Positions 1-62,250 of a stretch of DNA of 64,000 nt are shown piece after piece (position 1 is the stretch's first letter; every line of letters starts with the position of its first letter). The position numbers and the translations under genes are program-made. The notes beneath the pieces were generated by a model that searched no databases, had not been told where the DNA came from, and saw only the letters and a program-made list of their open reading frames with translations. The stretch comes from Psammoneis japonica (Eukaryota): the NCBI GenBank assembly GCA_008632985.1, contig QPGO01000078.1, positions 186,001 to 250,000 on the forward strand. The letters run 5' to 3'.

Positions 1-1972
1 AGACAAGCAACAAGCACACCACTGACCATCAGCCCAAGCTTGGACAGGAGACACACATCAAGTTCCACCACAGCACTTTGTGCAAGACATTCGCTGAGTT
101 GCTTCAACTGTCAAAGCAAAAGACCAGTTTTCTGTTTGTGGTGCCATCTCTTGGCATTTGTCATCTTCACTTTTGATTGTGCATGACAATCAGCAATGTG
201 AAAGAACTCCCATTCCAGCAACATCTCCCAGATGAACAGGGACTGTGACTTGCCACAGCATTTTGGTGACAATCCCTTGTTTGCTTGCAATTTGGTGGAA
301 CAAGAGAACATCAAGGCACAGTGGAGGCTGCCATGGTGGCCGTGGAGGAAAGGCATCATGGCAAGGTGACTGCAGCTTGCAAATGGTGCAAGGACATTTC
401 TCAGCACTTGGCTCATCCTGTGTTTTGGGACATCCCTCATGGCAGAGGAAAGCACAGCATTTTTGGCATGCTCCCCTGGGAACTGTTGCATGCCTTGCAC
501 TTGGGTCTTTGCAAGCACCTGCTTCATGGCTTCTTCAACCTGCGTCAAGTCCCAGAAAAAATGTTGTCATGGTGCCATGAACATCATGTGGCCGGGGACT
601 GCACAATGGACAAATGACCATCCATCACATTCAAGGAGCTCCCCAAGCTGTTTGAAAAAGCTGAGTTTGAGAGATGCTTCAGGGTTGTCACAGATGCGTC
701 CAGGAGACAAAGCCATTGGAAGATGCCAAGAACTCCATTTAAGACAGGAGTCACTGACCAGACTTGTCTTTCTGGCCAAGAGCATCCAGGTTTGTTGCTT
801 GTGACACTTGCTGCAATGAAAGGCATGCTGTCAAAAGAAGACAACAGCCACAAGCCACTGGAGAGTCACTTTGCCCACCTCATGTTCATGTCTTTGGGAT
901 TGGGTGCAACACTGTCCATGTCCTCCAACAAGGAAAGCTTTCTCACTTGGCTTCAGAAATGCCTTTTCAAGTGTCTCCAATTGTTTGAATTTGCAGTCAG
1001 CCTGTTCAGAGAGTGCCGCCCTTGCTCTGGACTTCACACATCCAAGTTCCACGGCCTTCTTCACTTTCTTTTTTATGTTTGTCAGTGCAGCAATGCCAGC
1101 AATTTTTTTGGTGGATTCTGTGAAGCTCTTCTCAAGATGCTGCTTTTGAAGCAACCTGCTAAAACCACAAGTCGTTGGCATGACAGGCTTGACCCAGATG
1201 TGACAAATTGCCACCATGAGGACCTTGTGGTCAGGGAATCAGAGAAGCATTTGCTGGAGGTGGGTTGGACCTGCAGCTGGATTCAAACTGCACAAATCTG
1301 TGTTGACAGCCACTTGTGCTGCAAAGGCAGGTCACACCAATGCCGCATGGTTTGTAAAATGTGGCAACAAACAGCTTGAGACACCGTCACATCCTTTTGT
1401 TCCTGGCCATTGTGGGAACAAGTGGGTGACCTCCTTGCCAGATCATGCTGATCAACATGAAGCTTTCCCTGTTGACATTGTCAATTTTCATTTTGGATGC
1501 AGTGCTCTGGGCCCAGCCAATGACAAATGACATTCTAGGATGCCACCCCAACTTTCACTCCTGTCCATGGGAATGCAGGAGTTGGCATGACTGGGCCATG
1601 ATGAACTGGGACAAGAATGAAACAAGCTGTTCTGCAGCAGCTTGTGTGTCGTTGTGGGCAACCTTTGAAAATGAAACAACAGAGTGCAGCAAATCCATGG
1701 TTTGTGCAATCCAATCACTTTGGAGCTTCACACCATCCAAAGATTTGCTGCTGACCTTTTTCATCATGGATGCAATGGAGTCAGAAATCAAAGTCAATGA
1801 TGCTTCTGACACATTGTCCGCTGTCTTTGGTCTTCCATTGATGAGGTCAGAACAAGACCCCTTTCCCAACAATTTAGAGGATGCTGCTCATTTTGTTGTT
1901 GTCCCACCAAGGATTGACTGGTGCAACATGACTTTGTCATCAATGGAGGAACATTTGGCCCCTCAAAATTAG
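1..1972 (+). mobile_element. Degenerate Plavaka-like DNA transposase relic (runs off the left edge)
   Basis: Fragments HPVFWDIPHGRGKHSIFGMLPWELLHALHLGLCKHLL (ORF 285..617), KFHGLLHFL...NFFGGFCEALLK...KQPAKTT (723..1379) and HPNF...SWHDWAMMNW (1445..1972) resemble Plavaka-type transposase motifs as I recall them. Sequence is almost devoid of TA and CG. Confidence 0.55.
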
Positions 1973-3162
1973 GAGGATTGCTGGTGAAGCATTGACAATT
2001 TAACAATCTGTTAATCCTGATGAAACTGCAACTGTCAAATCACTGCATTTCATTGTTTTTGTCCACTGTGTTCAAGGAAAGGCAGCCAGCAGACAACAAA
2101 GATTTGCTGCTGTCTGCAGGATGCTCAATGGACAGCAAGTCACACTCTGAGAATGTTTCTCTGCAATCAACAGTGGCTTTTGGTGAATCAATAAAGAGAA
2201 GTCCCATGAGAATTCTTGCAAGTGCAAGGCACCATTGCTGTTGTCTCCTTGCAATCATCACCCAATGATTCATCAAAGGACTGCTTGTTTTTTGTTTCCA
2301 GATGAAAGTCCTCTCTCATTGCAACAGCCTTCTTGGTGAAGACATTTGCAGTGCAGGCTGTGTTTGTGATTGACTTTCCTTTCTCATGGACAGCCGTGTC
2401 CACCTTCATCCCTTTGGAAAACAATGGAGATGTTGCCAAACACTCATTCACCATGTGTCACACAATGTCTGGAGCAAGGGGATTGTGTTCTTTCCCCAAT
2501 GTGCATTGCAGCTGGGGTGCAGCAAGCATCCCAGGCAATTGGCTTTGAGTTCTGATGTGACATGCTGAACCAACTTCAATTTTCCAATGCTTTTCTCCAA
2601 CAAGATGCCAAGCAACAACACATTTGTGTGACTGTTCCATGCAACTTGAACAATGTCCTTGTGTTGTTTCACCGCAAAGGCAACTTTGGGTGTCATGTGT
2701 TTTTCTTCCTGTCTTCTGGCTGCACCTGACTTCTGTGTTGCCAACACCACTGTGCAGCAGAAATGGTGACACATCAGCCAGTGCAATGCCCCTGTTCTTG
2801 GCTGGGTCCAGCATCTGCATTTGTTGTCAATTCTGTCCTGGTGCAAATCAAGTGTGTCATTCTTTGGGCTCCATGTCATGCTGCATTTGATGGTGGAGAA
2901 AGCATTGGCATCAACACCAAGAGGATCCAAACAACCAGGTTGCACATCAAAGTCTCCCACGAGTGTTTTCAGAACCCACCAAAACTGGTCAGTGCCTTTG
3001 AGTGCAGATTTTCTCTTGCCATCAGAAAGTTGGCTCAACACTGTTTCTGGCAATGGCTGTCCCTCCCTGTGCAACAAACAGTGAACCAGATTTGTGTGAC
3101 CTGGGAACAAGTCATCGCGACAAATGCTGAACTCTTTTTCCAATGTTGACTCCCCCCAAGGA

Positions 3163-3438
3163 TGACAGAAAATGAAGGCAAATGGCAAGAATTCAAACAA
3201 CAACTCCTTGCTGCTGTCTAAATGGCAGATGAGTCTCCGCTCAGAGACCGTCACAGGAGCCGAAGGACGTGCAAGTCGGCATAATCGGGCCACTGTTGTT
3301 ATTCTTGTGAGCCTTGTGGCTCAAAAGCAAACTACATCGCGCGCGAACGCGCGGAACTAAAGCACACAAAACTGTGCACGGTAAACTAAACAGCGCGCGA
3401 CACTTCGCGTGCATCCAAATCCTGTTCAAATCCTGTCA
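3163..3438 (-). repeat. 3' LTR (TpA-mutated copy)
   Basis: Aligns without gaps to 6331-6606 with 10 substitutions; TG...CA termini. Confidence 0.92.
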
Positions 3439-3445
3439 CTCCCCA
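3439..3445 (-). promoter_or_regulatory. Polypurine tract of the LTR element
   Basis: Plus-strand CTCCCCA reads TGGGGAG on minus, immediately before the 3' LTR. Confidence 0.65.
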
Positions 3446-3504
3446 GTTTGCTTGAGGAGTCACAGAAACAGATTCGACTTCGGATTGACTAAAGAACTTT
3501 GGAG

Positions 3505-5373
3505 TCAAAGCACCAAAACATGAGGAGACAAGAAAGGATCAAGATCCAAGAGCAACGTTGCATTCTCCAAGTGGGTCATCTTGAGATGAGCTGCGTCTCC
3601 CCAGTTGCAGATGCCGTTGTGCTTTTCAAAGCTCAAGGCACACTTGGGATCTTGTGGGATTCCACATCCGCACTTGCAATGGAAGGAGCAAAGCTTGGTC
3701 TGGTTGACAATGTTGAACGGCGGGGCAACATTGCAGGACAATGCAAACAAGTTGACATCGCCTTCACTTCCTGAGCGAAGGTCATAAAGACTGATGTCCG
3801 TCTGTTGGTTCTTGGGACAGTTGCCACACTGGGCTGCTGCTAGAAAAACAGAGCAGTGCTCGTGCAGGGTGGCATGGTGTTTGCACGACTCGGGGAACAG
3901 AGCAAGCATGAGTTCAAAGGCACAAGCAGTGGTCTTGTGTTCCACCAATCCGATTGCAAGCTCAGCTGCATCTCCTGAGAGACTGATCCAATTGGAGAAA
4001 CGAGTCTCAAGGTGCAAGCCTTCGGGGATCGGATTGGAGCAAGACATCTTGTGGTGCAAGGCTGCAGATGTCTGATTGGGGCAACCAGTCCCGTGCTGCA
4101 AGACTTCTGGGATCCAAAAGGACTTGCCAGTCTTGTGACACGAGTCTTCGGGGATCCAATCAGGAGGCCAAGTCTTGAGGTGCGAGACTTGGGGGATCCA
4201 ATCAGGAGGCCGAGTCTCGTGGTGCAAGACTTGCCGAGTCTTGAGGCATGAGATGTGGAGGATCCAATTGGGAGGCCCGGTCTTGAGGCACGAGACGTGG
4301 AGAGTCCAGTTGGGAGGCCTGGTCTCAAGGCACGAGACTTGGGGCATCCGATCAGGAGGCCCAGTCTCGATGTACGACACTTGGGGCATCCAATCAGGAG
4401 GCCCAGTCTCGAGGTGCGAGACTTGGGACATCCAATCAGGAGACCTGGTCTCGAGGTACGAGACTTGGGGCATCCAATCAGGAGGCTCAGTCTCTAGGTA
4501 CGAGACTTGAGGCATCCAATCAGGAGGCCTGGTCTCATGGTGCGATGCTTGGAGGATCCGAAGACAACAAAGCTGCTTGGATGTCCTGAACTCCCCATCT
4601 GATGAACCGGTTGAACTGTTGTGAACAGATTCAATGACGGGAAAAGGAGGCTCCCCATCAGGAGATGCAAGAAGCAAGTTGTCATCTCCATCACCTCCCA
4701 AATGAAGGCTGTGAAGGGTGACAGCGGTCGACACGTGGAGGTTGGCAGCAAGTGGTTTGCGGGGTGCAAAGGCTGTAGCTTTGGAAGCCATGGGTGGAGT
4801 GTCCCAACTGGTCTCGAAGTGCGGGTCTGTGCAAGGGCTGCAATCCTGCACTGGGCCGAGGTTGCTTGCAGGCGGGTTGGTCAAGACATGCGGGGCGCGA
4901 CTGACACCACTTCTAGGGGACACCTGAGTGGTGGCACAGTGCAAGGCTGGTGTCAAAATGGCACTGGGTTCACCTGGTTTGGATGGCAAGGGACTCGGCA
5001 CAGGTGCGGAGGGTGCTGTGCCAGTGGCTAGAGAGGTCAAGTGGTCCGGACCAAGGCGGCAGTTGCAAAATTCCTCGGGTGTGAGCAACTGGGGTTCATT
5101 GGTCACATCATCACCGTTGCAAACTTTGACAAAGTAGAAGCTGATCAAAGCTGCTAGGAGGTTTCTGTGGGTCCGTGGCAAAGGCACTACATTGGCGCCG
5201 TCTCTGCAAGTGAGGGCGTCAATTTGGGTGGGTGAAAACGTGAGCAATTCCTCGCACGATTCAATCCCGTTGATGGACAGGGCAGAACGAAGAGGGCTGT
5301 CATTGTCTTGATTGAGCACAGTGCCTAGAATGTATTTGAAGCTTTCGGTTTGTTGCTGTCGCGTGAGAACCAT
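3505..5373 (-). pseudogene. Gag-like ORF fused to 14-aa repeats and a residual pre-RT pol motif
   Basis: N-terminus MVLTRQQQTESFKYILGTVLNQDNDSPLRSALSINGI resembles CoDi gag. KCGCGIPQDPKCALSFEKHNGICNWGDA resembles the KxGYEIPxxYxxALxxDxxNGNxxWxDA segment preceding copia RT, with Y->C changes. Confidence 0.65.
3990..4540. repeat. 42-bp tandem repeat array (about 13 units, ETxPPDWxPQVSxL on minus)
   Basis: Recurrent GAGACTTGGGGCATCCAATCAGGAGGCC units; divergence increases toward lower coordinates. Confidence 0.9.
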
Positions 5374-6313
5374 GACGGAGGACGGTGCAGCAGAAACAAA
5401 AGACAAGATCCAATCTAGAGCGCGATCTTGACTCGGAGTTTTGACTTGGAACTTGGCTTGAAAAAGACTTGACTTGAGCTAGACTTGACTTGAAATCTTG
5501 GACCATCTTAAAATCAGAAGTGGCCGGGTTGTGCTGTCCCGTTCGTTGTTGAGTGCTAAACTTCCCATCCGGTCCGTAGAGTTGTGCCGGCACGTCCGAA
5601 CCCGCAGCTGGTGGCGCTTTGGGTTGCTTGCGAGCGGAGCAGCGGGTTGTAAACCCCTGCAGGTGAGCTGACCAGAGGTGGACAAGACCCCCGAACCGTT
5701 CTCATTTTATGTCGGTTGGATTTCCCGATCAGGCTGGCCAGTTGACGCAGGCGTTGGGCGCTGTGGACGAACGAACAAACGCGGGAAAAACACCCTCGCC
5801 CCAATGCAGGCTGTGGTCACGGCTGCTTGCTCTCACAGTCGTCCTCGTGGACCTAGTAGAACTGTAGAGCACCAGTAGTCCGGGGTAGATCAGGTGCAAT
5901 GGACTCGGTGTGCTTGTAGAGTGGCAGCAAAACCGCAATCCGAAGAGTGGGTACAAGTTCTTGGCCGTGAAGATATGTATATATATATATGTCTTCAGCG
6001 ACGAAGGTCCTTGAATATGTAGGGTTCTTGACCGTTAACCGATGAATGGGTATATCAAGGGATGAGGATCAAGGATAGACTTGGATATGACCGTTGAATG
6101 TATGTCTTCAGCGATCAAAGGTAGTATAATCAATCCAGATATCCAGCGGTAAGGAGACTTGACGGTGACGTTAACTTCCTGCCGATGCCCTGGTATTGAA
6201 TGCGCGTAGACTTGCCGATGTATGTAGGATATATACAGAGGTCCACGTAGAATTGAAATAGCGTCGTTGGTAAATCAACGACGACGATGGCGGTTGCTCA
6301 ATGGGTTGACAAT

Positions 6314-6330
6314 GAGCAAGACTGTTAATC
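6314..6330 (-). promoter_or_regulatory. Putative primer-binding site complementary to a tRNA-Asn(GTT) anticodon arm
   Basis: Directly abuts the 5' LTR; plus strand GCAAGACTGTTAATC has the CT-GTT-AA anticodon-loop pattern. Confidence 0.5.
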
Positions 6331-6606
6331 TGACAGAAAATGAAGGCAAATGGCAAGAATTCAAACAATAACTCCTTACTGCTGTCTAAATAGCAGATGA
6401 GTCTCCGCTCAGAGACCGTTACAGGAGCCGAAGGACGTGTAAGTCGGTATAATCGGGCTACTGTTATTATTCTTGTGAGCCTTGTGGCTCGAAAGCAAAC
6501 TACATCGCGCGCGAACGCGCGGAACTAAAGCACACAAAACTGTGCACGGTAAACTAAACAGCGCGCGATACTTCGCGTGCATCCAAATCCTGTTCAAATC
6601 CTGTCA
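6331..6606 (-). repeat. 5' LTR (TpA-retaining copy)
   Basis: Direct repeat of 3163-3438 that retains 9 TA dinucleotides lost in the other LTR. Confidence 0.92.
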
Positions 6607-9340
6607 AGGAGTGTGGTGGCAAATCTGCATGAGACTCTGCCAGTGCTGCCAAATTTGTTTTAATCAGTGGCTTGCCCATCACTTGACACCAGTTTGCCAA
6701 TGTTGCAGAATCAATTTCCGAGGCTTTCCACACTTTGTCAGATGGCCACACACACTTGAGTTCTTTGTGTGTTTGTTCAAGGTGGCACTCCAACAGAGCA
6801 GTGTCCACAGCCAAACTTGGCAACAACAGTTTGCTTGTGCCTTCTGTTGTTTGTTCATTTCCCTTGTGGCGCTTCAAAGGACATTGTTGGCATGGGACGG
6901 AGGAGGAGAACGGTTTGACATTGATGTTGAAGGTCAGGCTGTGTGATGATTTAGGTGGAGATGCCAATTTGGGCTTGCACAGCTCTTTCTGTCTGTTTGA
7001 TGGAATTTTGTTGTTCATTTTGGGAGAAGTGAATTGCATTGTGTGTTTCACAATGTGCACCAATGAGGTGTTGTGAGCAACCTTGTTCTGGAGATTGACA
7101 ATTTGGTGTTTTGTGATTTTAGTCACAACACAACATTTCAATTTGGAGCTTGCTGTGGCAATTCATTCATTGTGGAAAGACATTGATCCTCGGCAATGTT
7201 GCAACTCTCTCTTCAATCTTCATGAGCAAGGAACAATCTGTGGCATCATCATTGTTGATTCAATGTCTCAGAACATTCCAAATGGAATGTTTGCGATGGC
7301 CACATGGTTCAACACCATGCAGAAAGGCCAGCACAAACACCACAAACACAATGTCAACAGCAACAAATGGAGCACAGACCAGCTCATGAGTGACTCAGAA
7401 TTGCCGCAGCTCATTCAATGACTTTGCCACCCTCAAATAGACAGGGAACAAATTCTTGTAGAGGAACGCAATGTCTTTGATGATCTGCTGCAAAGGGGTG
7501 TTGCTCAGATGCAGTGTCCATCAGGGAGAGTCACACCTCTGCCCAGTGCTCCATTTGCTCATGCGGATGCAACCAGCATTTCCCTGGAGACCATGTCTTC
7601 ATAAGAACTGAATTGGGCATGTGCTCATGTGCAAAGCAACTCCAGCAGACAGGGCCATGGTTGTGGATCAGGCATCTCCAAGCTGAGTGCACTTTGGGAC
7701 ATGCAATGGTTGCAGCACCTGGAGGCATCCATTGAACATCAGGTCACTTGCTCAAGCAGAGGTGGACTCCAGTGTGAACATCACATGGGATCTTAACTGC
7801 AACCATCCAAAGGTTGTTTTGTTCTTGCTGGCAATCTTTGCACACAGACATCTGGACAGTGACCTGAGATGCAAAGGAAGGCGGGCAACGGGGAAGGGCA
7901 CAAAGGCAAGCTGAAGCAATGCATGAGACAAAATTGTAAGAAAAACAAGACATGTGTAAAAACTGATCATTGGCACAAAGCTTTGTCCAGTTGCAGGCAA
8001 CATTTTGGCTGACTAAACAGAAGGAATGTGTGTGATCATTGGAGGATGATGTTGTTGCCTGGTGCAGACTGTTGTGGAGAGAGTGAGAGTGGTGGCAAGG
8101 GAGAACACAGGGATCAAAACATCAAACCCTTTGGGTCAATTGTGGTGCACATTTGTTGTGCATTGGAGAATGCAGACCACCATGCAGAGCAGCAACCCTC
8201 TCATTTTTGAAAACACTTGTCGGCATCACAACATCATGACAAGCTTGTGCAGTGATTTCGTCACTTCCTTTTGAGCCTCTGCATTGCTTTTTGTTTCATT
8301 GCATTTGCTTTTTTTTGAAGAAAGGTCTGCACTCTTCATTGCACAAAGATTCAAAGTGCAAAAAGAGCTGCCCTCTGCAATTGCCAACTTGCTTGGTCAG
8401 AAAATCCAGATGGAAGCTCATGTGCATGCACATGATTTTTGTGCACATTCCTGAGCAGCTGCACACTGTAGACAGGGCATCTTGAGCAAATGTTGGGAAA
8501 GAAGGGTGGAATGAGGTCAGCAAGCAACCACCATTTTGCCAGCTGCAATGCTGGTGTGGCAATCTTGCAAAACTTTGCTTGTGTGGCTGTGGCCCTCCCC
8601 ACTGGCTGCTGGCTTGGTTGACAAGAGCAACCCAAAATTGTGCTGGAAGACATGTTAAAAGCACTTCAATGCCATGCAAGCTCAGGCAGGTGCAGTGATG
8701 GAGTTCATCAGAGAGAATGTCCACAGTTTGAAGGAGAGGGAGTGAGGTGCTGCAAGCTGCTCACCAGTCTTGTGTGTTTGATGGACGCCATTCTTTCCTC
8801 TGGAATGTGTCTTGCAATCTGGCCACTTGCTCGACTCAGGCATTCTTCGCCAGCACGAAGAAGAAAACAAGCAACCTCTGAATTGGACAGCTCAGATGGG
8901 ATCTCACATGTGCAGGCAGTGGTGGGAGTGAACTTTGGGAGGATCATGACACTTTGGTTCACAGGCACGATGTCGACTCTAGAAAGTCTTCCCAGCAGCA
9001 TTGCGCAGAAGCAGAGTTGACCGTGACACACAACAAACGTCAGGAGCATTTGGCGAAAGATCAAGGAGTCTCATCAGATGCATCAGCAGAACACAAGACA
9101 TTTTCAACCACCAGAAGGCAGAATTAGATCGCCATGGTTCGCCCCAGATTGAAAGAAAGTTTGAAGGAAGCAAAAAGATTGGCCCTTCGCAGCACTCACG
9201 CCATTGCCAGCTGTTTCCGTTGGGCATCTCTGTCTGGTGGAGGTGCCACAACTGGCCAATCGCACTGTCTTCTGTCACACACCTGGCGGGGTGTGCTGGA
9301 AGTGTGGATTAGCCGGCCCCGGGGTTGCAGGGCAAAGGCG
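6607..9340. other. Heavily decayed TA/CG-depleted repeat-like block, family not assignable
   Basis: Very few TA or CG dinucleotides, Cys/His-rich broken ORFs; continuous with 1973-3162 across the LTR insertion. Confidence 0.5.
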
Positions 9341-12550: not shown

Positions 12551-13118
12551 AATGACGGTTGCAAAATCAACGTATGAACCTGCTGATGTGATTGCTCGGG
12601 AAAGAGATGAAAATGCCAATGGATAAGCTCTCATGAGATGCTTACGATGCGGCTTCGTAGTTCTGGTACATCAATCGCATCCTCAATGTCATAGCGGATT
12701 CAGGATGTTGTTCCAACAAGTTCCCTGTCGCCCGTCGTCGGTCGTCGGTCGTCGCTCTTGGATTTTTGATCTTTGTGCCTCTACCGTACTACTCCCCGAT
12801 CCAGATCTTCCGCGCGCGCGAAAGTAGCGTGCAGTGCGTCGCCTACCTGTCAGGATTTTGCGGGGGGGGGGCGCTGTTTTTACTTAAGGCCCCCCCACGA
12901 AATTCAACCTCATTTAAGCACCTGTGACATCCCCCCCCCTCATACAAAAAATCCGTAGAAGTGACAGTCGTCGTCGCGCGCCATCTTTTTGGCCTTTTTC
13001 TGGAACGCCTTTCATAACAACGACCCTCATCGTTGTTGCAAGTGCGCACTTCATACTTCATCGATGCCTTTCCTTTTCAACAAGGGTTTGTCAAGAGCCC
13101 CTTTGTATTCTCATTGCC

Positions 13119-32457: not shown

Positions 32458-32606
32458 CTCTTTGACACGTTCTCCGAGCTGCCCTCCATCATTGCGGCGG
32501 CAACACTGAACACTGAGCCTTGCTCTAGAGTAGAGAGCTCTCTCTCTAGTAGCTAGAGCTAGTAGTAGTCGCTTGTTTTCACGATCGTTTCTTTTTAATT
32601 AATTAA

Positions 32607-35150: not shown

Positions 35151-35154
35151 TTGA

Positions 35155-46600: not shown

Positions 46601-47264
46601 GATGTTTCGGAATGCTCTCCTCGGTTTCAGACCTTGTTGCAAGATGGGGTCCAGACACAAACTCGACCAATGGAACCGTGTTTGTTTTCGATTTGATGAC
46701 CTCCCCATCAGCCGGCGCATTCGTCGCCCGAGCCATGTGAATCATGTCATGGGACGAGCTTCCTTCCCGGCGTGGTTCCTCCTCCTCCGTTTTCTCCTCT
46801 TCCATGCTCGGGCGATGCCTGTAGACTTCTCCTGTCTTGTCCTCGAGCAGAGCATCTTGGGACGAGCATTGCATGCCTTGGTGCATGTTTTGCTTCTCGT
46901 GATCAATGTGATGGTGTTTTGGCACCGTCAAAGAAGGACAGCCTTCGTCCATGACAGATTTCATGTGCGAACGAGCTGGTTTGTTCTCTGTGGGACCAAC
47001 GGCCACAGCACCAGGCATCACATTCTTGTCATGCGTTCTGTGGCCTGCGAGACGCCTCTTTTCTCCCAAAACACCAAGCTTGCCCTGAAATTTATCAGGG
47101 GGATTATTGCTTGCTGGCTGGGCCAAAGATTCAGGTTGTTTTGCACGAACATTGTGATTGTCTCTCTCCGAGTCCCTGCCGTCTGGGCATCTGCTGGGGA
47201 TCGCCGGAGGTTTCCGATCATCATCATCGTCGGTTCTGCTGTGCAAGGGCTTTGAATGCATCAT
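43640..47264 (-). pseudogene. Diatom-type LRR receptor-like protein gene, hypermutated and frameshifted
   Basis: PGAVAV-type N-terminus, TM segment, Cys-rich CTLCEDG module and many plant-type LRRs (LxLxxNxLSGxIP); expected Tyr replaced (LNLCGN, LLLLHHAT). Confidence 0.85.
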
Positions 47265-47399
47265 TTCGTTGTCTTTTTGTTACGAGTGCACTGCTGTCAA
47301 GGTTTCTTTTTTCACAATGCGATGGCTTGGTCACACATAAAACGCGCAACACAAAAAAAGCGAACCACCATCAATCATCCAAAAAAAAAAATCAAAAAA

Positions 47400-53949: not shown

Positions 53950-56327
53950 CCAGAAGATGCAGAAAAATGAAAAAACGCGACACCAAGTAAGTGGGGGATG
54001 GATCGTTGCGTTCATTGCTTCGTCGCAAGGCGAGAAAACAAGAAGTGCAGGAAACACCACCAGCGGGGATCAAAGCATCTGTGGGGACGAATTGTTGTGC
54101 ATTGCTTCATCACAGAAACAAGAGGTGCAGAAACAGCACCAGCAGCCGGGGTCAAAGCATTTGGCTGGCTGCACAAACAGCAGCCCCTCTCTTGTGAAAG
54201 GGCCAGTGATGGATGCTTCCAAGGAAATTTGAGCTGGGGCAGGCTGTTCTCTCCTCCTCACAGCTCCACCTCTCAGCCTCTGCCAGACATCTGCTCTCAT
54301 TCAGTTTCTTTGCTGCATTGTTTTTGGGCAATCGCCAGACCACAATTGCCCTCTGGTGTCGCCACTCTCTCTGACTCTTCCCCCCTCAGAGTGGCTGTGA
54401 GCGATGCTCCTGGCCAAGAAGCCACTCTGGCTGGTTGTGCCATGATCACCAGACCTCAGGCCAGAGCTTGCAATGTTGGGGAACCTGGAATTGGAGCTTG
54501 GGATAGAGAGCCACAAAGGGTGGGCTGCACAGGCTGCAAAGGAAAACTCGCTCTCGACTCATCAACGTGCAATGCAACGCTGATGAAAGAAAACACCGAG
54601 GATGCTGCAGCTCATGAAGCTGCTTGCAGCCACACACCAGCAATGCAAAGCAACCCCCTCACTCACACAGGGGGGGGGCACAGACCATTGTCTCCTGTTG
54701 GTCTCTGATCTCTGATTTGTGCCAAAGAATCTCGTCACCCCCCAACGGGCCAGCCAAGTGAGGGGCCTGTTTTGTCGATGCTGAAATGCCTCAGTGTGCC
54801 CCAAAAGGGAAAAGTGTGGGGTTGCCCACCCAGTTGTCATTGCTTTGGCTGCCTCAAGCACCAGCTTTCTCTCTCTCTCTCAAACGAATGATCAAAAGCG
54901 GCGAAGCCAATTTTCCGTCAAATGTGACAAACAAATGACACAAGTGGCCAAGGTGGAGCTGCTTGCTTGATTGGACATTCATCCAACTGTTTCAGCAAAT
55001 GGCTGGCACAACAACGTTGGCCAAAGCAAGAAGAGTGAGACTTTTGCAGTGGTTCATCAGTGGCTGGCTGCTGCTGTTGTTTACGTGATTGAGGTTGTTG
55101 TGTCAAAAGATCCAAAGGAGGGCGGCGGACGAGTTGAACAGGACGATTTGAGTTCAATCGCCCATCTCTCTGTCTGTCTCTCCCTGTCTCTCTCTCTCTC
55201 TCTCTCTCTCTTGGGGGCTGTGCTGTTTGCAATCTGGCACAACAAAACCAGGGGGGCTTGGGAGGTGTGAAGTTTGTGGCAAGAAAGAAGGTTTTTGAGG
55301 TTGTGTGAGTGGCTGCAGCGTGCAATCATGCGGTCAAGGCTGATGCATTGTTGAGTGTAATTTCGAAGGTTTGAGAGGGGTTGTGAGTGGGGAGGGGTGG
55401 CCGTTGTGCCTTTCTAAAGCTTCTGCAATTCACTTGATGGCAGGTCATTTGGGTGACAAGGGATGTGCAGGAAGATGGGAATTGACTGGTGTTCCAGTGT
55501 TGCTCTGGTTGCATTTCCAAAGAGATGAGGTTGTGCGCCTTTCGGAAGAGCGGTTGCAGTTTGCTGGGCTTGTGGCCTTGGGCTTGTGGTCAAAGGCAGA
55601 GCAGTCTCATTTTTGCCTTTGCATTGGCAGTGTTGGAGCAAAGATTTTTTAAGTGGAAGAGCATGCCCATGATTGGGCCGGTGAGCACTCCAGGCAGGTG
55701 AGCTGGCTGAGTGTGAGGTGGGGTGCACATGCACAAATTCATTTCTTTTTCATAAAGGGCAGTGTGAAGGTGGGAGCCTTGGAGTGAGATTGTGAGGTCC
55801 ATGAAGTTAACATGACAGCTCCGGGCACTTGTGATCTGGGCAATGTTGAAGTCGTTAAGCCTGGAGGCAAATGCTTCCCAGGTGGTGGCGTCGGTGGTGG
55901 TGTTGGTGATGTGCCAGATGCCGAACAAGACATCATCAACAAAATGTTTGTGGCAAAAAAGCTGGGAGCTAAACTCCTCCAGGAGTGTGTCTTTGTGAAG
56001 TGCACAGCAGTGTGAGGTGGTGCATGGAGGGGCAGGTGGTGTGCCCATGGTGGCTCCATTGCACTGGTGCCAGGTGGTGTCTCCGAATGTGAGTGCATTG
56101 TTGTTCATCACAATTTGGAGTGCTTTGATGAGGGCCTCCATTGGCACATCATTGCAGTCGTTTTCATGATGTCAAAGATGGGAGGTGATGAGTTGGAGTG
56201 CTCTCAAGCAAATGCATGAGTCAGCACAGCCAATTCTCCACATGTCAAATGTTGCCAACAAAATGCGAGCAGCTGAGGTGGGAGAGCTGCTGGTCGAATG
56301 GACAGTCATCCAAGCTGCAGACCAAAT

Positions 56328-56368
<41 letters not shown>

Positions 56369-58500
56369 ATGAATGATCAAACAATCACACAAGCAATCAA
56401 CCAACAAATGCAACAAACAAAAAACAAAGCAGCTGACAATGTGGCCACACCTCGGATGTTTTGTCCAACTGTTCAGAAGCAACAGCAGGCACAGCAAACA
56501 AAAAACAAAAAACAAAGCACTCAGGAGGCTTGCACTGCATGCTTTTGCTGATGACAAAAGTTGAGCTGTTTGCATCATTTTCACTTTGTTTGTGAACTGA
56601 TTTGCTGCAGATTTCTGTCTCAACTTCACTGGTTTTTGGCAGCTTTTGTTGAGATTGGGGGGAGAAGGCACCTTTTTTGCAATGCCATTGAGCTGTGTCT
56701 GTTCCTGAAATTCATCATGACCTCTGTTTTGCTGGAGGAGAGGTGCGGATCTGTGCCCACGCAATGCTTGCTGCATCAAAAATGCCTCTGCAAAAATTTC
56801 ATGAAGTGCCAGCCACTCAGAGCATCAAACATGAAGAGCTGATTTCCTTTGTTGATGCTGGGCCCAAATTTGCAGAATGACAGCCACCCCAATGTGAGTG
56901 CAGCACTGAGCCAAGACCGTTTCTCAGTCCTTTTCTCATTCTGCAGTGGAAAACAGCATTGTTGCTGACTTTCATGATCTTGTTCTTCTTCTTGATCACT
57001 GCATCATCTCTCTGCATCTTCTTTTTTTTAACACTTGCAAAGCAACTCTTTGAGTGGGGCAGCATGTGCTTCTTTGCACCACCAAAGTGCCATCCTCTGC
57101 AAAGTGGCAGAGATGTTTTCCTGCTTCTCAAACTCTGCTTTGCCAAAAAGGGATCACAGAATGACTCCTTGGCAGTGTTTGCATGTGATGGTGCATGCTC
57201 GTGCAGAGGGTGTTGGAACTGTGGTCCTCCTCTTGCTGAAGAGCACAGTTGAAGTTCTGTGTTTTTGTTTTTGCTTGACATGTCAGGTGCATCTGGTCTG
57301 ACACAGACACCAATGGCCACTTTCCCTGTGGTTCTGGGCTTGCAAAGATTGCACAGGTGCAGCAAACAACAACCTGGCATTGTGAGCTAGAGAAGTTGGC
57401 ATGCCAACCTTGGCAACAACTCTGCCTCAAGTGTGTTTCATCAAGACTGCTTGGAAAGTTTGGGCAACAATGCAAGAGGCTTGGAAGCAAAACCAGTGGT
57501 GAGAAGCTGTCCACATTTATGTCAAATGCACCAAGATTGCATGCATTCTTGCTGAGGGAGCAGAGCACCACTCATGCCAGCTCTTGACACATCCACCAGC
57601 TTTCTGCTCTTTCACTGCCATCTCAGTTTTGACAGTCACCAGCTGTGCTGGAGGTTTGCTGTCCTGCTTGTCACCAACAGATGATCCTGGCATTGTCCCT
57701 GGCATTGCTTCTTGTGATTCTTCTTGGCTGCCAAAAATTTGCACTCAACAGCAAGTTTGTCAACTGTGCAACAATCAACAACCCTCAAATTTCATGCAGC
57801 CCACATCCATGGCAGCAAAAACAGGGCTGAGTTTTTCACCACACCAGTGGCAGATGTGCCTTGTGCCACCAACAAGCAAGCATTGCTTTGACTGACCAAC
57901 AAAAGTTGTGCTCTCAACAACCAACTTTTTTCTGACTGTGTCACTGGCAGATTGACACAGCTGGTGTCCATGGAGGCAGCAAAAGCAGGAGGTGATCATT
58001 TGTCCACCTTCACTCTTTTTGAAGCAGCTGGGGAACCTGCTTCCATTTTGTGTCCTCACCACAAGCCATGCCTTTGGCTTTTGCCAAAGCTCAAAAGCAG
58101 TGGTGTGCAGCAACACAGGGTCCAGAAGTGGTGGGTGGTCACCGGCAACCCCCCCCCCCTTGATCGCGCTCTTCCTCCATCATCATTGTTGGTTGCTGCT
58201 TCAACAGCCCCAATGTGTGTTGCGTGCACTGCATGACTCAGCCCTTGCTGCAGCGCTGCACAGACTGTGTCAAAGTGCGCCAATGCCATGGCTCCAAATG
58301 ATGTACAAACTGAGTGCAGGTGCAAAAACAGACTGAATGGCCTTGTGCATGCAGCATTGCTGTTTGACAGTGTGTTGTGATCAATTCACTCCCACTCCAG
58401 AGTTCATTTGCAGATGGCACTTCAGTCACGTTGCAAAAACACCTGGAACTGACAACTGAGCCACCCACAGGTTCTCTGTCACTCCTTGCTCCTGACCTGT
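53950..58500. other. TA/CG-depleted decayed repeat block with (CT)n microsatellites
   Basis: Near absence of TA; (CT)n at about 54868, 55166-55210 and 56330-56367. Confidence 0.6.
55590..56147 (-). mobile_element. Penelope-like reverse transcriptase fragment
   Basis: VMNNNALTFGDTTWHQCNGATMGTPPAPP, HFVDDVLFGIW, FMDLTI, LYEKEMNL...PPH...H.PG match PLE RT motifs with Y->C/H. Confidence 0.8.
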
Positions 58501-58751
58501 CTCCATCCTGCATCTGCCATTACCGTGTGCTGCTCCCATGAAATGGCAATTGATGTGCATCAAACGGCGTAGAAACTGGAACATTGCAATGTCGCTGCAG
58601 TCTTCAAGCGGAGAAGAGGAATCACCGTCTTTTCATCTAGCTTTACCATCCTGTACCTAATGTAAAGTTACAGCAGGCAACGACGTCCTAGCTAGACGTG
58701 CAGACAAACACATGTTATGTAAGTATGATACAAACATATCCTGGTTAGGTG

Positions 58752-59735: not shown

Positions 59736-59959
59736 CGCTCGTACAACTGCCGGTATGTTTGTGGGGAAACGCGGTCACAAACACCTTCAAAAGCCTCTCA
59801 CAGCTCTCCGGAAAACAAAACAACGAAGATCTTTTTCTTCTTTTGTGAGAGTATGTCGTACATGCGAGAAGCAATCCCCAAACAACACACGACGACACAC
59901 GAATCGGACTTGCTCTGCCGGCAGCATGGCCGCGGCGGCTTTCGATTGATTTTTTATAA

Positions 59960-62250
59960 TGATTCATGAGGTCGGACTGATTGACAGACTTCTCCATGGT
60001 GCAATTTCTGCGCAAGATGCTTTGGAAAGACACCACTTGCATTGCCTCTTCGCTGCATTACAGCGGTGGAAGCAAAAAGGAAAGCTCGTGGAATGCAGAA
60101 CAAGCCCCAAGGTGACCCTGCAAAGAGCAGAATGGCAGCGCTTTTCTGTCAGATCATCCTTGCATCTTCGCGTTGTGCCTTTGTGCCAATTCACTTGTCG
60201 CCGCAAAGACGTGCTTTTCACTGGATTGTGTGCACAACTCACATGGTCAGATTCCATTCAAGAATGCCACCAACAGATTTGGCCCAACAGATAATCTTGA
60301 GCACTCTTCTCAGCTTCTTGAACCAGTGTGCCCATGACAACATGGAGGATGTCACAGGCTTCTTCGCCGCACTTCATTCTTGCACTCTCTCCTCTTCTTC
60401 TCCTTGGCGCCTCTCCATTTCCCCAGACCACAAGCAGCAGCCACTGCAAGAGCAATGCAGCAGCCGCAAATCCACCCAATGCACCACTGACAACAGTGCT
60501 GACTGCAGTCAAATCTTCTTTCAATGATTTGCTGGATGGTGGGTGAGGCCTGAGTGTGGGTGAAGAGGTGCTTGTTGGGGTGGTGGGAGGTGAGTCATTG
60601 GTCCATCAACATCCGCATGATTCACAGGCCATTTCCCCCTCAAAATTGTTGCAGGATTGACCATGGGATGATTGCTCACACTCAACATCATGCCAGGAGC
60701 AGAAATGCCATTTGAACTCACACAAACATCTGTTGCAAAATGTGTCATGGCCACAATCTAAAGCATCACAAAGCACAGACCCAAGGCAGATTCACACACG
60801 GCTGGTGACGAGCAGCTTCCCAAGAAGAGACTTTCACAGAATCTTGATGTGGATCTAGAACACATCCATTCTGCAAATGCAGCATGTTGCCAGACAAAGG
60901 AGAGCAACAACAAGGCAATGAGAGAGTGGCAGCAGCTGCTGCCCTGCGGGGATGCTTGCCGATCAACATCACGGTGTGACTTGTTCTTCTTTCTTCTTAC
61001 AATGCTCAAGTTGACAAAGTGATCTTCTTTTTTTGTGAAGTTGCACACAAGAGGCAATCTAAAAATGACACCCAATTCAGAAAAATGAGCTGCGCACCAC
61101 TTCAGTCAGACTTGCTCCACTGGCAGAAAGAAGTGGGGTGTGTTTGGTGGCAGGAAAGGTGCAAAAACTGCACAGCCACAATTGAAAGCACTGTCCTCAC
61201 AAAGTCCAGTTATCAAGTGCAATGAGCTTCCACAATTCAGTGAGTTTGTTGTGCATTGTGGGGGAAAGTGCAGAGATCTTGCTGTTTGCTGATCAACAGT
61301 TGAGGAAGACCTGTGGAATCCAGGAAAGGTGGGGAGCAGAGACATGGGCAAATGAAAAACACAGCATCAGTGCACAGAGCATGGCTGAAGACCAACAACC
61401 TTGTTGGCAGCTTTGTCCGATGGTGCAAAGTTTGCAAGTTGGGTGGGAATGATTGGCAGGCACTGGACAGCAGTGCTGCATGGTTGGGAATGCCAAGAAG
61501 AGAGATGCAAGCATCTTGCAACCCGGGACAAGAACAACGTTAAAGACAGATGCAGCCACATTGGAGATGGCCTTCAAAATCAAAGCAAAAACAAGTTTTT
61601 TTTTAACCTTGCATGGGAAGAAAGGGACAGAAGATTTGTCATTGTGTGGGCCAAACAACACATTCGCTGATGTGCTGGTGGGGAGTCAGGAGGCAGTTGG
61701 GCTTTCTCCTGTGACATCTCTTCGCTGCATGGCATCAACAATCTGCTGCTGTGACAGGACCTGTGAGTGCACTGATGCTTTGACAGACAAACAATGGCAT
61801 TGCTCTTGGCTGTCAACTGAGCACAAAACACAAACTGTGATTTGTTCTGTTTGTGACTGCTGCAAGCTGGTCTCTGTGACTTCCCTCTTTGGAGTCTGGC
61901 AAGCAACTCAGCCATGGGATGAAGCTTGTGAAGGGCGCACCAGTGCAATCTAGTGGCAATTGTTCTGTGTTGAAACAACAAAGTCAACAAAACCAGTGCT
62001 CTTGCTCCTTTTCACTTGCTTCTTGTCAACACATTGCATGCAGATTATGAAAGAGAGAGAGAGAGAGAGCTTCAAACCTTTGGGTTTTTCAGCCCACCAC
62101 ACCCAGCCCTTGCAGTTCTCTGGCTGTCTGGGTTACCACAGAAGTTGACTCAGCCACAAGCAACCCAACAGCTGCAGCAGCCTTGGCAAAGCCACGGCAC
62201 CCAGAATGTAGAGTGCAGTGGAGAGAAACAGAGGGTAATCGTCCAAAGTG
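59960..62250. other. TA/CG-depleted decayed block, possibly containing a dead gene copy
   Basis: Near absence of TA; contains a mutated copy of a host upstream module at 61021-61117. Confidence 0.5.

What the first reader, a model, noticed from the sequence alone, without database searches (positions are those of the whole stretch)
1..62250. Repeat-targeted TpA->TpG/CpA hypermutation: an 'inverse RIP' genome-defence-like system
Seen: all transposon-rich blocks (about 1-5.1, 6.6-9.3, 13-23, 33-49, 54-58.5 and 60-62.2 kb) are almost free of TA, while interleaved host genes have normal TA. Paired copies differ mainly by TA vs TG/CA. Direction is fixed by TTAA TSDs reading TTGA, a TAA stop reading CAA, and conserved Tyr reading Cys/His in several unrelated element classes (LTR, DDE, Kolobok, PLE) and a host LRR gene. 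Known: fungal RIP goes the other way (CA->TA), and 5mC decay gives CG->TG. Neither removes TA. Inference: an A->G mutator acting at 5'-TA in silenced or repeated DNA. Candidates are a TadA/ADAT-like DNA adenine deaminase or Pol-eta-type error-prone synthesis, both known to prefer TA/WA. I am not aware of a description in diatoms.
Basis: partly seen in the sequence, partly recalled or inferred. Interest (0 to 1): 0.97.

Follow-up and report, generated by a model that had tools for sequence, protein, structure and literature searches.

The report
TpA-erasing hypermutation in diatom transposon domains
Six stretches of mobile or degraded, unidentifiable DNA in this diatom window have had nearly every TA step rewritten to TG or CA while neighbouring genes are untouched, which matches a mutation process so far reported only in an unrelated alga and suggests it is a wider defence against mobile DNA.

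Summary
Six segments (about 40.7 of 64 kb) have TA observed/expected of 0.05-0.15. The interleaved host genes have 0.48-0.80.

The direction is TA to TG/CA:
- Conserved Tyr reads Cys/His in two unrelated element families.
- Nineteen sites read CA in one copy and TG in the other.
- In three repeat pairs that straddle a segment edge, the inside copy lost TA at 56 sites and the outside copy at 3.

Only 10 of 119 differences in one pair lie outside TA/CG sites. I estimate TA sites mutate several hundred times faster than other sites. Contigs from accurate reads reproduce the sequence.

Of 34 environmental relatives of the reverse transcriptase, 33 have normal TA. One shows the same signature.

The process follows domains, not repeats. 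The same TpA-only signature was shown in mutation-accumulation lines of Bigelowiella natans (bioRxiv 10.64898/2026.01.13.699255). My searches found no report for diatoms. The enzyme is unknown; I favour DNA adenine deamination (inferred).

Verdict: real, a new member of a very recently described kind.

The parts
4..5322 (.). TA-depleted segment 1. It combines an old TA- and CG-poor block with the 3' half of a younger LTR element.
   Evidence: TA o/e 0.09, CG o/e 0.32, TA at 30 of 1142 TA+TG+CA sites..
6578..9305 (.). TA-depleted segment 2. It continues the old block that the LTR insertion split. No recognisable coding sequence.
   Evidence: TA o/e 0.07, CG o/e 0.20; no Pfam hit. X1 contigs of 1121 and 1109 bases at word depth 62-67 reproduce it, with 6 and 4 other letters.
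13112..22791 (.). TA-depleted segment 3. It covers most of three tandem copies of a 4.6-kb unit.
   Evidence: TA o/e 0.15, CG o/e 0.75..
33000..49117 (.). TA-depleted segment 4. It holds most of a Mutator-like transposase gene, a reverse-transcriptase element, broken LRR reading frames and a 427-N gap.
   Evidence: TA o/e 0.11, CG o/e 0.70..
53992..58634 (.). TA-depleted segment 5. It is also CG-poor, and its identity is unknown.
   Evidence: TA o/e 0.05, CG o/e 0.23; no Pfam hit.
59960..62207 (.). TA-depleted segment 6. It is also CG-poor, and its identity is unknown.
   Evidence: TA o/e 0.08, CG o/e 0.22; no Pfam hit.
3163..6606 (-). LTR element with 276-bp LTRs at 3163-3438 and 6331-6606 (TGACAG...CTGTCA), flanked by AGGA on both sides. 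The left LTR lies in the depleted segment and the right LTR in a host-like segment. The minus strand is inferred from a purine-rich tract next to the left LTR.
   Evidence: sequence; 10 differences, of which 9 read TG/CA on the left and TA on the right and 1 reads CA against CG. TA count is 7 against 16; an X1 contig joins 3155 to 6605 (the empty site).
12854..17443 (+). Copy A of the 4.6-kb unit. It encodes the 1173-aa frame 12918-16436 (P0001), which has no Pfam family.
   Evidence: of 19 Tyr-consensus columns, 2 keep Y, 7 read C and 5 read H.
17444..20550 (+). Copy B of the unit (unit positions 1-3107).
   Evidence: Copies A and B read H against C, or C against Y, where the homologues have Y.
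20555..23713 (+). Copy C of the unit (unit positions 1431-4590). Its last 923 bases lie outside the depleted segment and keep their TA.
   Evidence: Inside the segment: 17 TG-vs-CA sites, with 10 and 1 one-sided losses. In the tail, copy A lost TA at 29 sites and copy C at 3. TA count is 17 against 43.
48309..48970 (.). Direct repeat, the copy inside segment 4 (TA = 4).
   Evidence: at 18 sites this copy reads TG/CA where its partner reads TA, and none the other way. At 4 sites it reads TG/CA where the partner reads CG.
49214..49877 (.). Partner copy just outside segment 4 (TA = 22).
35705..39359 (-). Reverse-transcriptase element (RVT_1). Its class is not resolved.
   Evidence: the three Tyr-consensus columns read H, C and Y. 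Y is 0.3% against a median of 2.2% in 29 homologues, and C is 4.5% against 1.7%.
32641..34725 (+). Mutator-like transposase gene. It starts in host-like DNA and runs into segment 4.
   Evidence: The Tyr test is inconclusive because there is only one good homologue.
43845..45439 (-). Leucine-rich-repeat frames broken over three reading frames inside segment 4. They contain no Tyr.

Best explanation
**Shown**
- In this diatom nuclear region, DNA inside discrete domains of mobile or degraded DNA has undergone A:T to G:C transitions almost only at the dinucleotide TpA. The products are TG or CA, depending on the strand hit.
- The changes occurred in place, after the copies were laid down.
- I estimate the rate at several hundred times that of other sites. 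This runs until TA is nearly gone.
- The domain edges are sharp and can cut through a repeat or an element, so the trigger is a property of the domain and not of sequence duplication.
- The domains also show CpG decay.
- Both strands are hit about equally.
- A pyrimidine 3' of the mutated A roughly doubles the chance (T-A-Y).

**Inferred**
- This is the same kind of process as the TpA hypermutation seen in mutation-accumulation lines of Bigelowiella natans.
- It is directed at silenced chromatin, probably 5mC-marked.
- The chemistry is most likely enzymatic deamination of adenine to hypoxanthine on DNA by a TadA/ADAT-like deaminase. Hypoxanthine is then copied as G.
- I put about 0.85 on a real, domain-limited, TpA-specific process acting on DNA in place, and about 0.4 on adenine deamination as its chemistry.
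For: **Composition**
-. Only TA falls (0.10 against 0.57) and only TG/CA rise. AA, AT, GA and AG are unchanged. GC is 0.507 against 0.473.

**Direction, from proteins**
- At 19 columns where at least 3 of 4 homologues of P0001 have Tyr, copy A keeps 2, with 7 Cys and 5 His. Cys is kept at 15 of 21 columns and His at 15 of 18.
- The reverse transcriptase reads H, C and Y at its 3 Tyr-consensus columns.
- Reading frames in depleted DNA have Y 0-1.4% and, for most, C 3-6% and H 4-7%.

**Direction, from copies**
- In the pair 14285/20555 there are 119 differences. They are 43 TA-vs-TG/CA, 28 CG-vs-TG/CA, 38 in 19 adjacent CA-vs-TG sites, 6 other transitions and 4 transversions.
- At sites where homologues have Tyr, copies A and B read His against Cys.

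**Domain, not repeat**
- The inside copy lost TA and the outside copy kept it at 9, 18 and 29 sites. The reverse occurs at 0, 0 and 3 sites.
- CG was lost at 1, 4 and 4 sites against 0.

**Context**
- Events per exposure by the base 3' of the mutated A: C 67/207, T 47/136, A 23/175, G 20/130. The base two positions 5' has no effect.
- Surviving TA is rarest in ATAT (0.009 of the host level) and commonest in TTAA (0.31).

**Not an artefact**
- X1 contigs at word depth 54-67 reproduce the depleted blocks with 4-6 other letters per 1.1-1.3 kb.

**Not native composition**
- 33 of 34 metagenome loci of the same reverse-transcriptase family have TA o/e 0.41-0.88.
- One locus, L012, has 0.11 with CG 1.00, no Tyr, 4.5% Cys and its own edge.

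**Precedent**
- bioRxiv 10.64898/2026.01.13.699255. I read the Results and Discussion.
Against: - No whole genome is held. I could test neither genome-wide association with mobile elements, methylation or chromatin, nor the presence of a candidate enzyme.
- The evidence is comparative. No new mutation was observed directly.
- X1 probably comes from the sample behind the assembly and its library type is not on record. It excludes gross base-calling artefacts but is not fully independent.
- The left and right LTRs differ although an empty site exists in X1. This needs either a burst of mutation, gene conversion from an older copy, or a chimeric assembly of a very high-copy family.
- Three of the six segments have no demonstrable transposon identity.
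- Tests for same-strand clustering were not significant overall: runs tests gave p = 0.65, 0.28 and 0.18. Only the left 1.4 kb of copies A and B shows opposite strand bias, 10 against 2, p = 0.04.
- The pyrimidine preference was estimated on sites chosen because at least one copy still shows TA or the copies disagree.
- A lesion on T of TpA predicts the same spectrum.
Confidence: 0.75

Rival explanations
1. The domain-limited TpA process is the same, but the primary lesion is on the thymine. A modified T in the step R-T-A (for example a 5-hydroxymethyluracil-type base made by a TET/JBP-like enzyme in silenced DNA) mispairs with G and gives T to C.
For: TpA is its own reverse complement. A to G after T and T to C before A are therefore the same event read on opposite strands, and nothing or 65 tells them apart. 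The T-A-Y preference reads equally well as R-T-A. That some protists modify T in specific dinucleotides is recalled, not tested.
Against: No such modification is known to me in diatoms, and no search was made for it. Reads that treat the modified base as T would not show a change until it is fixed. The B. natans authors favour adenine deamination, but they also lack direct evidence.
Confidence: 0.13
2. Patches of error-prone DNA synthesis, by a Pol-eta-type polymerase recruited to silenced DNA during repair, insert G opposite T at WA motifs.
For: A to G at TA is part of the WA signature of Pol eta (recalled). Local strand bias in the left 1.4 kb of copies A and B, 10 against 2, would fit repair patches.
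Against: AA steps are not depleted: o/e 1.26 in depleted blocks against 1.16 in host blocks. A to G outside TA is rare: 8 of 103 differences with identical flanks are transitions outside TA and CG. Near-saturation of TA would need very many patches.
Confidence: 0.05
3. RNA editing (ADAR- or ADAT-like) of element transcripts followed by reverse transcription, so that copies arrive already edited.
For: An upstream U is the usual preference of A-to-I editors (stated in the preprint). One affected element is a retroelement.
Against: - The two LTRs of one insertion differ at 9 TA sites.
- Tandem DNA copies decayed independently at the same sites (19 CA-vs-TG sites).
- Edges cut through repeats.
- A Mutator-type DNA transposon gene and unidentifiable DNA are also affected.
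- The 3' pyrimidine preference is opposite to the 3' G preference of ADAR (recalled).
Confidence: 0.03
4. The elements are natively TA-poor, through origin in another genome or selection against TA, and nothing mutates in place.
For: Mobile elements can differ in composition from their host.
Against: - Conserved Tyr is replaced by Cys/His.
- 33 of 34 relatives of the reverse transcriptase have TA o/e 0.41-0.88.
- Outside-domain copies of the same repeats keep their TA.
- CA-vs-TG sites need a TA ancestor. Fewer than one is expected from CG at the observed CG loss (my estimate).
Confidence: 0.02
5. Sequencing or assembly artefact: modified bases in these domains are mis-called, or copies of high-copy families are assembled as chimeras.
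For: The window is a scaffold with a 427-N gap. The LTR family has word depth of 7,000-100,000, so local chimeras are possible. The library types are not on record.
Against: - Contigs built from 31-letter words at depth 54-67 match the depleted single-copy blocks at more than 99%. Noisy long reads would not give this.
- An independent metagenome contig shows the same signature.
- The B. natans mutations were called from Illumina data.
Confidence: 0.02

Closest known systems
TpA hypermutation of integrated viral DNA in Bigelowiella natans (Mettrop et al., bioRxiv 10.64898/2026.01.13.699255; abstract, Results and Discussion read, supplements not seen)
   Same: - Almost only A to G and T to C, all at TpA, giving TpG/CpA.
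- A rate about 1000 times the background, confined to discrete regions.
- A single-copy region is hit, so the process is not repeat-dependent.
- Clusters of TpA-poor, CpA+TpG-rich windows, and TpA-poor coding sequences enriched for reverse-transcriptase and DDE domains.
   Different: - A chlorarachniophyte (Rhizaria) there, a diatom (stramenopile) here.
- The main targets there are a giant-virus and a virophage insertion. Here they are transposon-type elements and unidentifiable old blocks.
- Depletion there is partial (Rho TpA 0.45 for the giant-virus region). Here it is near saturation (0.05-0.15).
- Their evidence is direct (mutation-accumulation lines). Mine is comparative.
- The preprint's main text does not use the words context, flanking or trinucleotide. 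The 3' pyrimidine preference and the spared repeat copies at domain edges are described here.
Repeat-induced point mutation (RIP) of Neurospora and other fungi
   Same: Transition hypermutation at one dinucleotide that kills mobile elements and leaves blocks with skewed dinucleotide content beside normal genes.
   Different: Here TpA is destroyed. RIP is triggered by duplication and hits both copies. Here one of two 95-97% identical copies is spared in three cases.
Decay of methylated CpG (5mC deamination)
   Same: It also yields TG/CA, occurs in the same domains (CG o/e 0.20-0.75), and hits the inside copy of straddling repeats (9 against 0).
   Different: It acts on a different dinucleotide and base. 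In the young copies it is slower than the TA loss: about 8-12% of CG lost against at least 51-77% of TA, my estimate.
Deaminase editing of retroelements in animals (ADAR on double-stranded RNA, APOBEC3 on cDNA)
   Same: Clustered transitions of one type in mobile elements, with a neighbour-base preference.
   Different: Those act on RNA or on cDNA before integration. Here the changes arise after integration, also affect a DNA-transposon gene, and stop at domain edges.

Membership tests
TpA-targeted hypermutation of foreign DNA (Bigelowiella natans type) | Mutations are almost exclusively A:T to G:C and fall on TpA, giving TpG or CpA. | tested here: met
   81 of 119 differences in the pair 14285/20555 are at TA-derived sites, 28 at CG and 10 elsewhere. 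The LTR pair has 9 of 10. The repeat at 48.3 kb has 18 one-sided and 2 two-sided sites among the 27 mismatches BLAST counts within it.
TpA-targeted hypermutation of foreign DNA (Bigelowiella natans type) | Confined to discrete regions of foreign or mobile DNA, with normal neighbours. | tested here: met
   six segments with sharp edges. Mobile-element identity is shown for segments 1 (part), 3 and 4 only.
TpA-targeted hypermutation of foreign DNA (Bigelowiella natans type) | The local rate is orders of magnitude above the background. | tested here: met
   My estimate. At least 51% and 77% of ancestral TA were lost in copies A and C since they split, against about 0.16% change per copy at sites outside TA and CG. 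This is a comparative estimate, not a per-generation rate.
TpA-targeted hypermutation of foreign DNA (Bigelowiella natans type) | Not dependent on the target being repeated. | tested here: met
   Spared outside-domain copies. The old blocks at 1335-2668 and 6671-9338 have word depth near the single-copy level.
TpA-targeted hypermutation of foreign DNA (Bigelowiella natans type) | New mutations arise in culture, and only in some lines. | not testable with these tools
   This needs mutation-accumulation or resequencing data from this diatom.
Fungal RIP | C to T at CpA, leaving TpA-rich and CpA/TpG-poor DNA. | tested here: not met
   The opposite is seen: TA o/e 0.10 and TG/CA 1.55. Tyr to Cys/His fixes the direction.
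Fungal RIP | Triggered by duplication, with both copies mutated. | tested here: not met
   56 sites against 3 between inside and outside copies of three repeat pairs.
RNA editing plus retrotransposition | Changes precede integration, so the two LTRs and daughter copies share them. | tested here: not met
   The LTRs differ at 9 TA sites. There are 19 CA-vs-TG sites between tandem copies.
Pol eta WA-motif mutagenesis | A to G at both TA and AA. | tested here: not met
   AA o/e is 1.26 in depleted blocks against 1.16 in host blocks. The WA motif itself is recalled.
TadA/ADAT-type adenine deaminase as the agent | A deaminase gene of this family is present and acts on DNA of these domains. | not testable with these tools
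   No genome is held. No deaminase was found among the window's genes.

The most novel reading that the evidence does not exclude
TpA erasure is an ancient genome-defence system shared at least by stramenopiles and rhizarians. It is targeted at chromatin domains, and a DNA adenine deaminase of the TadA/ADAT lineage is directed to silenced mobile or viral DNA. There it deaminates A in T-A-Y on exposed single strands, partly in bursts, until the invader can no longer encode tyrosine. Diatoms would then give a genetically tractable group in which to find the enzyme and its targeting signal. The enzyme would be a natural DNA adenine editor.
Probability: 0.3. Interest if true: 0.92.

Novelty: new member of a known kind. 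Interest (0 to 1): 0.72.

Why it matters
- Until 2026, no cellular process was known that removes TpA from selected DNA. The single report concerns viral insertions in one chlorarachniophyte.
- The same signature appears here at saturation in transposon domains of a diatom, and in one unrelated environmental contig. This argues that the process is widespread among marine protists and that its usual targets include transposons.
- It explains why such elements look uncodable: no Tyr, few stop codons, many long false reading frames.
- It gives a simple marker, TA observed/expected, for mapping silenced domains.
- It points to a natural enzyme that edits A:T to G:C in DNA with a T-A-Y preference.
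- For annotation: in such genomes, reading-frame length is no guide to coding in TA-free DNA. TGA is 1710 of 2028 stop triplets there, against 880 of 1740 in host-like DNA.

Tried and rejected
- **Whole genome.** Not held, so no genome-wide profile and no search for deaminase or polymerase paralogues.
- **Majority-rule polarisation of the three tandem copies.** Rejected. It suggested some TG to TA changes, but parallel loss at hypermutable TA sites makes parsimony misleading. I used protein outgroups and domain-straddling pairs instead.
- **First classification script.** It lumped adjacent CA-vs-TG sites under 'other transitions'. These were resolved.
- **Rfam on the whole window.** No family found, so the very deep stretch at 2.7-6.7 kb is not rRNA.
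- **Mutator-like gene.** Only one good homologue and few Tyr columns. Inconclusive.
- **Metagenome scan with the P0001 family.** No relative found.
- **Scans with 13- and 5-sequence reverse-transcriptase alignments.** Not accepted, because no stretch was conserved enough. A 3-sequence alignment worked.
- **Structure of the P0001-family protein.** Mean pLDDT was 35.6, so it is unusable and no fold search was made.
- **Protein Atlas.**
  - Uninformative for taxonomy with the sulfatase.
  - For P0002 the nearest clusters carry DUF6729, and more distantly Mutator/THAP. This is a lead only: recognition was below the tool's mark, and hmmscan found no family.
- **Same-strand clustering.** Not significant over whole copies.
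- **Sequencing runs.**
  - No RNA holder was listed.
  - X2 contigs lie only on 9.3-12.7 kb and X3 only on parts of the LTR element. Absence of cover elsewhere is not used as evidence.
- **Earlier findings of this scan.** Nothing relevant.
- **tblastn of all fetched element proteins against the window.** No further copies in segments 2, 5 or 6.

Full report
**What is there**

The window alternates between two kinds of DNA. A 1-kb table of dinucleotide observed/expected (o/e) values shows TA at 0.00-0.21 in about 1-5, 7-9, 13-23, 33-49, 54-58 and 60-62 kb. Elsewhere TA is 0.40-0.76. The 40-41 kb bin is distorted by 427 N.

A two-state segmentation on the share of TA among TA+TG+CA gives six depleted segments:

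| Segment | TA o/e |
|---|---|
| 4-5322 | 0.09 |
| 6578-9305 | 0.07 |
| 13112-22791 | 0.15 |
| 33000-49117 | 0.11 |
| 53992-58634 | 0.05 |
| 59960-62207 | 0.08 |

Six host-like segments have TA o/e 0.48-0.80. Summing the rows, TA makes up 247 of 8095 such sites in depleted DNA and 931 of 4297 in host-like DNA. The segmentation was fitted to the same data, so one search is the independent view.

The edges are sharp at 250-bp resolution. For example, TA per 250 bp goes from 9 to 0 at about 54.0 kb and from 1 to 16 at about 58.5 kb.

Only TA falls and only TG/CA rise (1.55 against 1.17). AA, AT, GA, AG and AC are alike in both kinds of DNA, and GC is 0.507 against 0.473. CG is also low in segments 1, 2, 5 and 6 (0.20-0.32) but only mildly so in segments 3 and 4 (0.75, 0.70).

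**What the DNA is**

The host-like stretches carry ordinary genes:
- a methyladenine glycosylase domain
- a sulfatase
- a Tex-like protein
- a BCS1-like AAA ATPase
- a BTB protein
- a fasciclin protein

Every hit of the AAA protein whose source names an organism comes from a diatom, at 56% identity or less. The window is therefore from a diatom with no close relative in that collection.

Mobile-element identity inside the depleted segments is shown for the following:
- A 3.4-kb LTR element at 3163-6606. It has 276-bp LTRs (TGACAG...CTGTCA) and AGGA on both flanks.
- Three tandem copies of a 4.6-kb unit: A 12854-17443, B 17444-20550, C 20555-23713. The unit encodes a protein of about 1100 aa (P0001). 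It has no Pfam family and four homologues at 41-48% identity.
- A Mutator-like transposase gene at 32641-34725.
- A reverse-transcriptase element at 35705-39359.
- Broken leucine-rich-repeat reading frames at 43845-45439.

Segments 2, 5 and 6 and the first 3.1 kb gave no hit of any kind. For P0002 the Protein Atlas points to DUF6729 and Mutator/THAP-like clusters, which is a lead only.

**Direction of change**

Three independent lines show that TA was lost rather than never present.

1. *Proteins.*
   - At the 19 columns where at least 3 of the 4 homologues of P0001 have Tyr, copy A keeps Tyr at 2. It reads Cys at 7, His at 5, Phe at 3, Val at 1 and Thr at 1.
   - Cys is kept at 15 of 21 columns and His at 15 of 18.
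   - Where copies A and B differ as Cys against Tyr, the homologues have Tyr in one case and Phe or Tyr in the other. At two sites where the homologues have Tyr, one copy reads His and the other Cys.
   - In the reverse transcriptase, the three Tyr-consensus columns of 29 homologues read His, Cys and Tyr. Tyr is 0.3% against a median of 2.2%, and Cys is 4.5% against 1.7%.
   - Reading frames in depleted DNA have 0-1.4% Tyr, and most have 3-6% Cys and 4-7% His.

2. *Copies inside a domain.*
   - The 3159-bp pair 14285/20555 has 119 differences:

     | Class of difference | Count |
     |---|---|
     | TA against TG/CA | 43 |
     | CG against TG/CA | 28 |
     | Adjacent sites reading CA in one copy and TG in the other (19 sites) | 38 |
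     | Other transitions | 6 |
     | Transversions | 4 |

   - A CA-against-TG site needs a TA (or CG) ancestor that decayed independently in both copies. At the observed CG loss, fewer than one such site is expected from CG (my estimate).

3. *Copies that straddle a domain edge.*

   | Pair | Inside copy lost TA, outside kept it | Reverse | TA count inside / outside |
   |---|---|---|---|
   | Left LTR (inside) vs right LTR | 9 | 0 | 7 / 16 |
   | Repeat 48309-48970 (inside) vs 49214-49877 | 18 | 0 | 4 / 22 |
   | Tail of unit copy A (inside) vs tail of copy C (outside from 22791) | 29 | 3 | 17 / 43 |

   Together this is 56 against 3. CG was lost 9 times in the inside copies and never in the outside copies.

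**Rate and specificity**

This is my estimate. For the part of copies A and C that lies inside the domain (2236 bp each), I count about 7 shared TA, 11 one-sided losses and 17 discordant double losses. Copy A therefore lost at least 51% of the TA present at the split, and copy C at least 77%. About 8-12% of CG was lost. Change at all other sites is about 0.16% per copy, from 10 of 119 differences over 3159 bp. TA sites have therefore changed several hundred times faster than ordinary sites, and roughly ten times faster than CpG in the same DNA.

The back-calculated TA content at the split is near the host level for the whole 3159-bp pair (about 100 sites, o/e about 0.5). The copies were therefore ordinary when they were laid down.

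**Sequence context and strands**

The analysis uses ancestral-TA sites in five copy sets. The chance of mutation depends on the base 3' of the mutated A: C 67/207, T 47/136, A 23/175, G 20/130. It does not depend on the base two positions 5'. Surviving TA agrees with this. ATAT is at 0.009 of the host frequency and TTAA at 0.31. The site selection requires that one copy still shows TA or that the copies disagree, so the preference should be re-measured on family consensus sequences.

TG and CA products are about equally common overall. In the left 1.4 kb of the unit, copy A carries mostly TG and copy B mostly CA at the same sites. Discordant sites split 10 against 2 (p = 0.04). Runs tests over whole copies are not significant: p = 0.65, 0.28 and 0.18. 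Burst-like action on one strand is therefore a hint only.

**Is it an artefact?**

Contigs of run X1, built from exact 31-letter words at depth 54-67 on single-copy parts, cover 1239-2531, 6743-7863 and 7951-9059. They carry 4, 6 and 4 other letters. This argues against systematic mis-calling of modified bases in noisy long reads.

There are two caveats. X1 is probably the sample behind the assembly, and its library type is not on record.

Among the 24 listed differences between X1 and the window in the two old blocks (positions 1-3162 and 6607-9250), 6 differences (7 listed positions, one a TG-vs-CA pair) involve TA against TG/CA, in both directions. TA is very rare there. That fits continuing hypermutability. 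However, I cannot say whether these differences are alleles, strains or paralogues.

**Is the low TA native to the elements?**

No. A scan of metagenome contigs found 34 loci encoding relatives of the reverse transcriptase. Of these, 33 have TA o/e 0.41-0.88.

The remaining locus, L012, is 3946 bp with 36% protein identity to the window's copy. It has TA 0.11, CG 1.00, TG 1.96 and CA 1.32. It has no Tyr and 4.5% Cys, and it reads Cys at the one column where 11 of 11 other loci have Tyr. It also has its own edge: 8 TA in the first 3300 bases and 16 in the last 650. This is an independent instance of the signature, from an unknown organism.

**The young LTR element**

An X1 contig joins 3155 to 6605, which is the empty site with a single AGGA (side 30 letters, depth 63.7). 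The family's word depth is 7,000-100,000 against about 55 for single-copy DNA. The insertion therefore looks recent or polymorphic, yet its left LTR has lost 9 of 16 TA.

This could be a burst of mutation, gene conversion from an older copy, or a chimeric assembly of a very abundant family. I cannot decide between these, so I rest no main claim on this pair alone.

**What is known**

A full-text search found one directly relevant paper: Mettrop et al., bioRxiv 10.64898/2026.01.13.699255. I read the abstract, Results and Discussion. The supplements are closed.

In mutation-accumulation lines of Bigelowiella natans, they report the following:
- 231 of 302 nuclear mutations fell in an integrated giant-virus region and a virophage region.
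- 230 of the 231 were A to G or T to C, and all of these were at TpA.
- The rate was about 6x10^-7, roughly a thousand times the background.
- Only some lines were affected.
- The giant-virus region is single-copy.
- The genome holds 124 clusters of TpA-poor, CpA+TpG-rich windows.
- The 324 TpA-poor coding sequences are enriched for reverse-transcriptase and DDE domains.
- They propose adenine deamination and name an ADAT2 homologue.

The preprint's main text mentions neither diatoms nor flanking context. Searches that combined diatom with TpA, TpG/CpA, RIP or hypermutation found nothing relevant. About 1.7 million PubMed Central articles and most subscription journals are not searched.

**How it most likely works**

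Shown: a domain-limited A:T to G:C process, specific to TpA, acting on DNA in place.

Inferred:
- The domain is silenced chromatin, probably cytosine-methylated, because CpG decay follows the same edges.
- The agent is an enzyme rather than general instability, because of the single-dinucleotide specificity, the neighbour preference and the sharp edges.
- The chemistry is adenine deamination to hypoxanthine, which is copied as G.

TadA/ADAT enzymes always act on an A that follows U33 of a tRNA, and bacterial TadA acts on U-A-C. Both statements are recalled, not tested. They fit T-A-Y better than ADAR does, since ADAR prefers a 3' G (recalled).

Because TpA is its own reverse complement, a lesion on the T of R-T-A gives exactly the same spectrum and remains a live rival. 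Pol eta is unlikely because AA is untouched. The RNA-editing route is contradicted by the LTR and tandem-copy comparisons.

**Verdict**

- The 'repeat-targeted' reading is not supported. The process follows domains.
- The phenomenon is no longer undescribed, but it is described for only one distant alga and mainly for viral insertions.
- Here it is at saturation in the transposon domains of a diatom, with a second environmental instance and added detail on context and edges.
- I file it as a new member of a very recently described kind, with high remaining interest because the enzyme and its targeting are unknown.

Noticed in passing
window 11939-12670 (-): A gene with a methyladenine glycosylase (Adenine_glyco, Tag-type) domain sits about 200 bp from the left end of the 4.6-kb repeat array. 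This is probably coincidence. It is noted only because a base-excision enzyme for damaged adenine lies beside adenine-mutated DNA.
   Followed up: no
window 3155-6605: An X1 contig joins 3155 to 6605. This is the empty site of the LTR insertion with a single AGGA and one C fewer in the C-run. The insertion appears polymorphic or recent.
   Followed up: partly
window 2669-6670: Summed word depth is 7,000-100,000 in X1, against about 55 for single-copy DNA, and 3339 contigs were laid on the 20-kb stretch. The LTR family is very abundant and varied in this organism.
   Followed up: no
L012:1-3946: A metagenome contig with a distant relative of the reverse transcriptase shows the same TA erasure: TA o/e 0.11, CG 1.00, no Tyr. 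It changes to normal TA at about 3300. The organism is unknown.
   Followed up: partly
window 12854-14284 and 17444-18879: At the same ancestral TA sites, copy A carries mostly TG and copy B mostly CA: 12 G and 3 c against 5 G and 15 c, with discordant sites splitting 10 against 2. This may be a trace of bursts acting on one strand. It is not significant over whole copies.
   Followed up: partly
all depleted segments: TGA makes up 1710 of 2028 stop triplets on both strands, against 880 of 1740 in host-like DNA. Long open frames therefore abound in every frame of TA-free DNA, and their length is no evidence of coding.
   Followed up: yes
window 4085-4561: Diverged tandem repeats with a period of about 100 bp (70-76% identity) lie inside the LTR element's 657-aa reading frame.
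   Followed up: no
window 32599-34125 (+): The Mutator-like reading frame begins in host-like DNA, where the Tyr residues of HTYYKFG and GYKCYK are kept. It crosses the domain edge at about 33000. The edge therefore lies inside a gene.
   Followed up: partly
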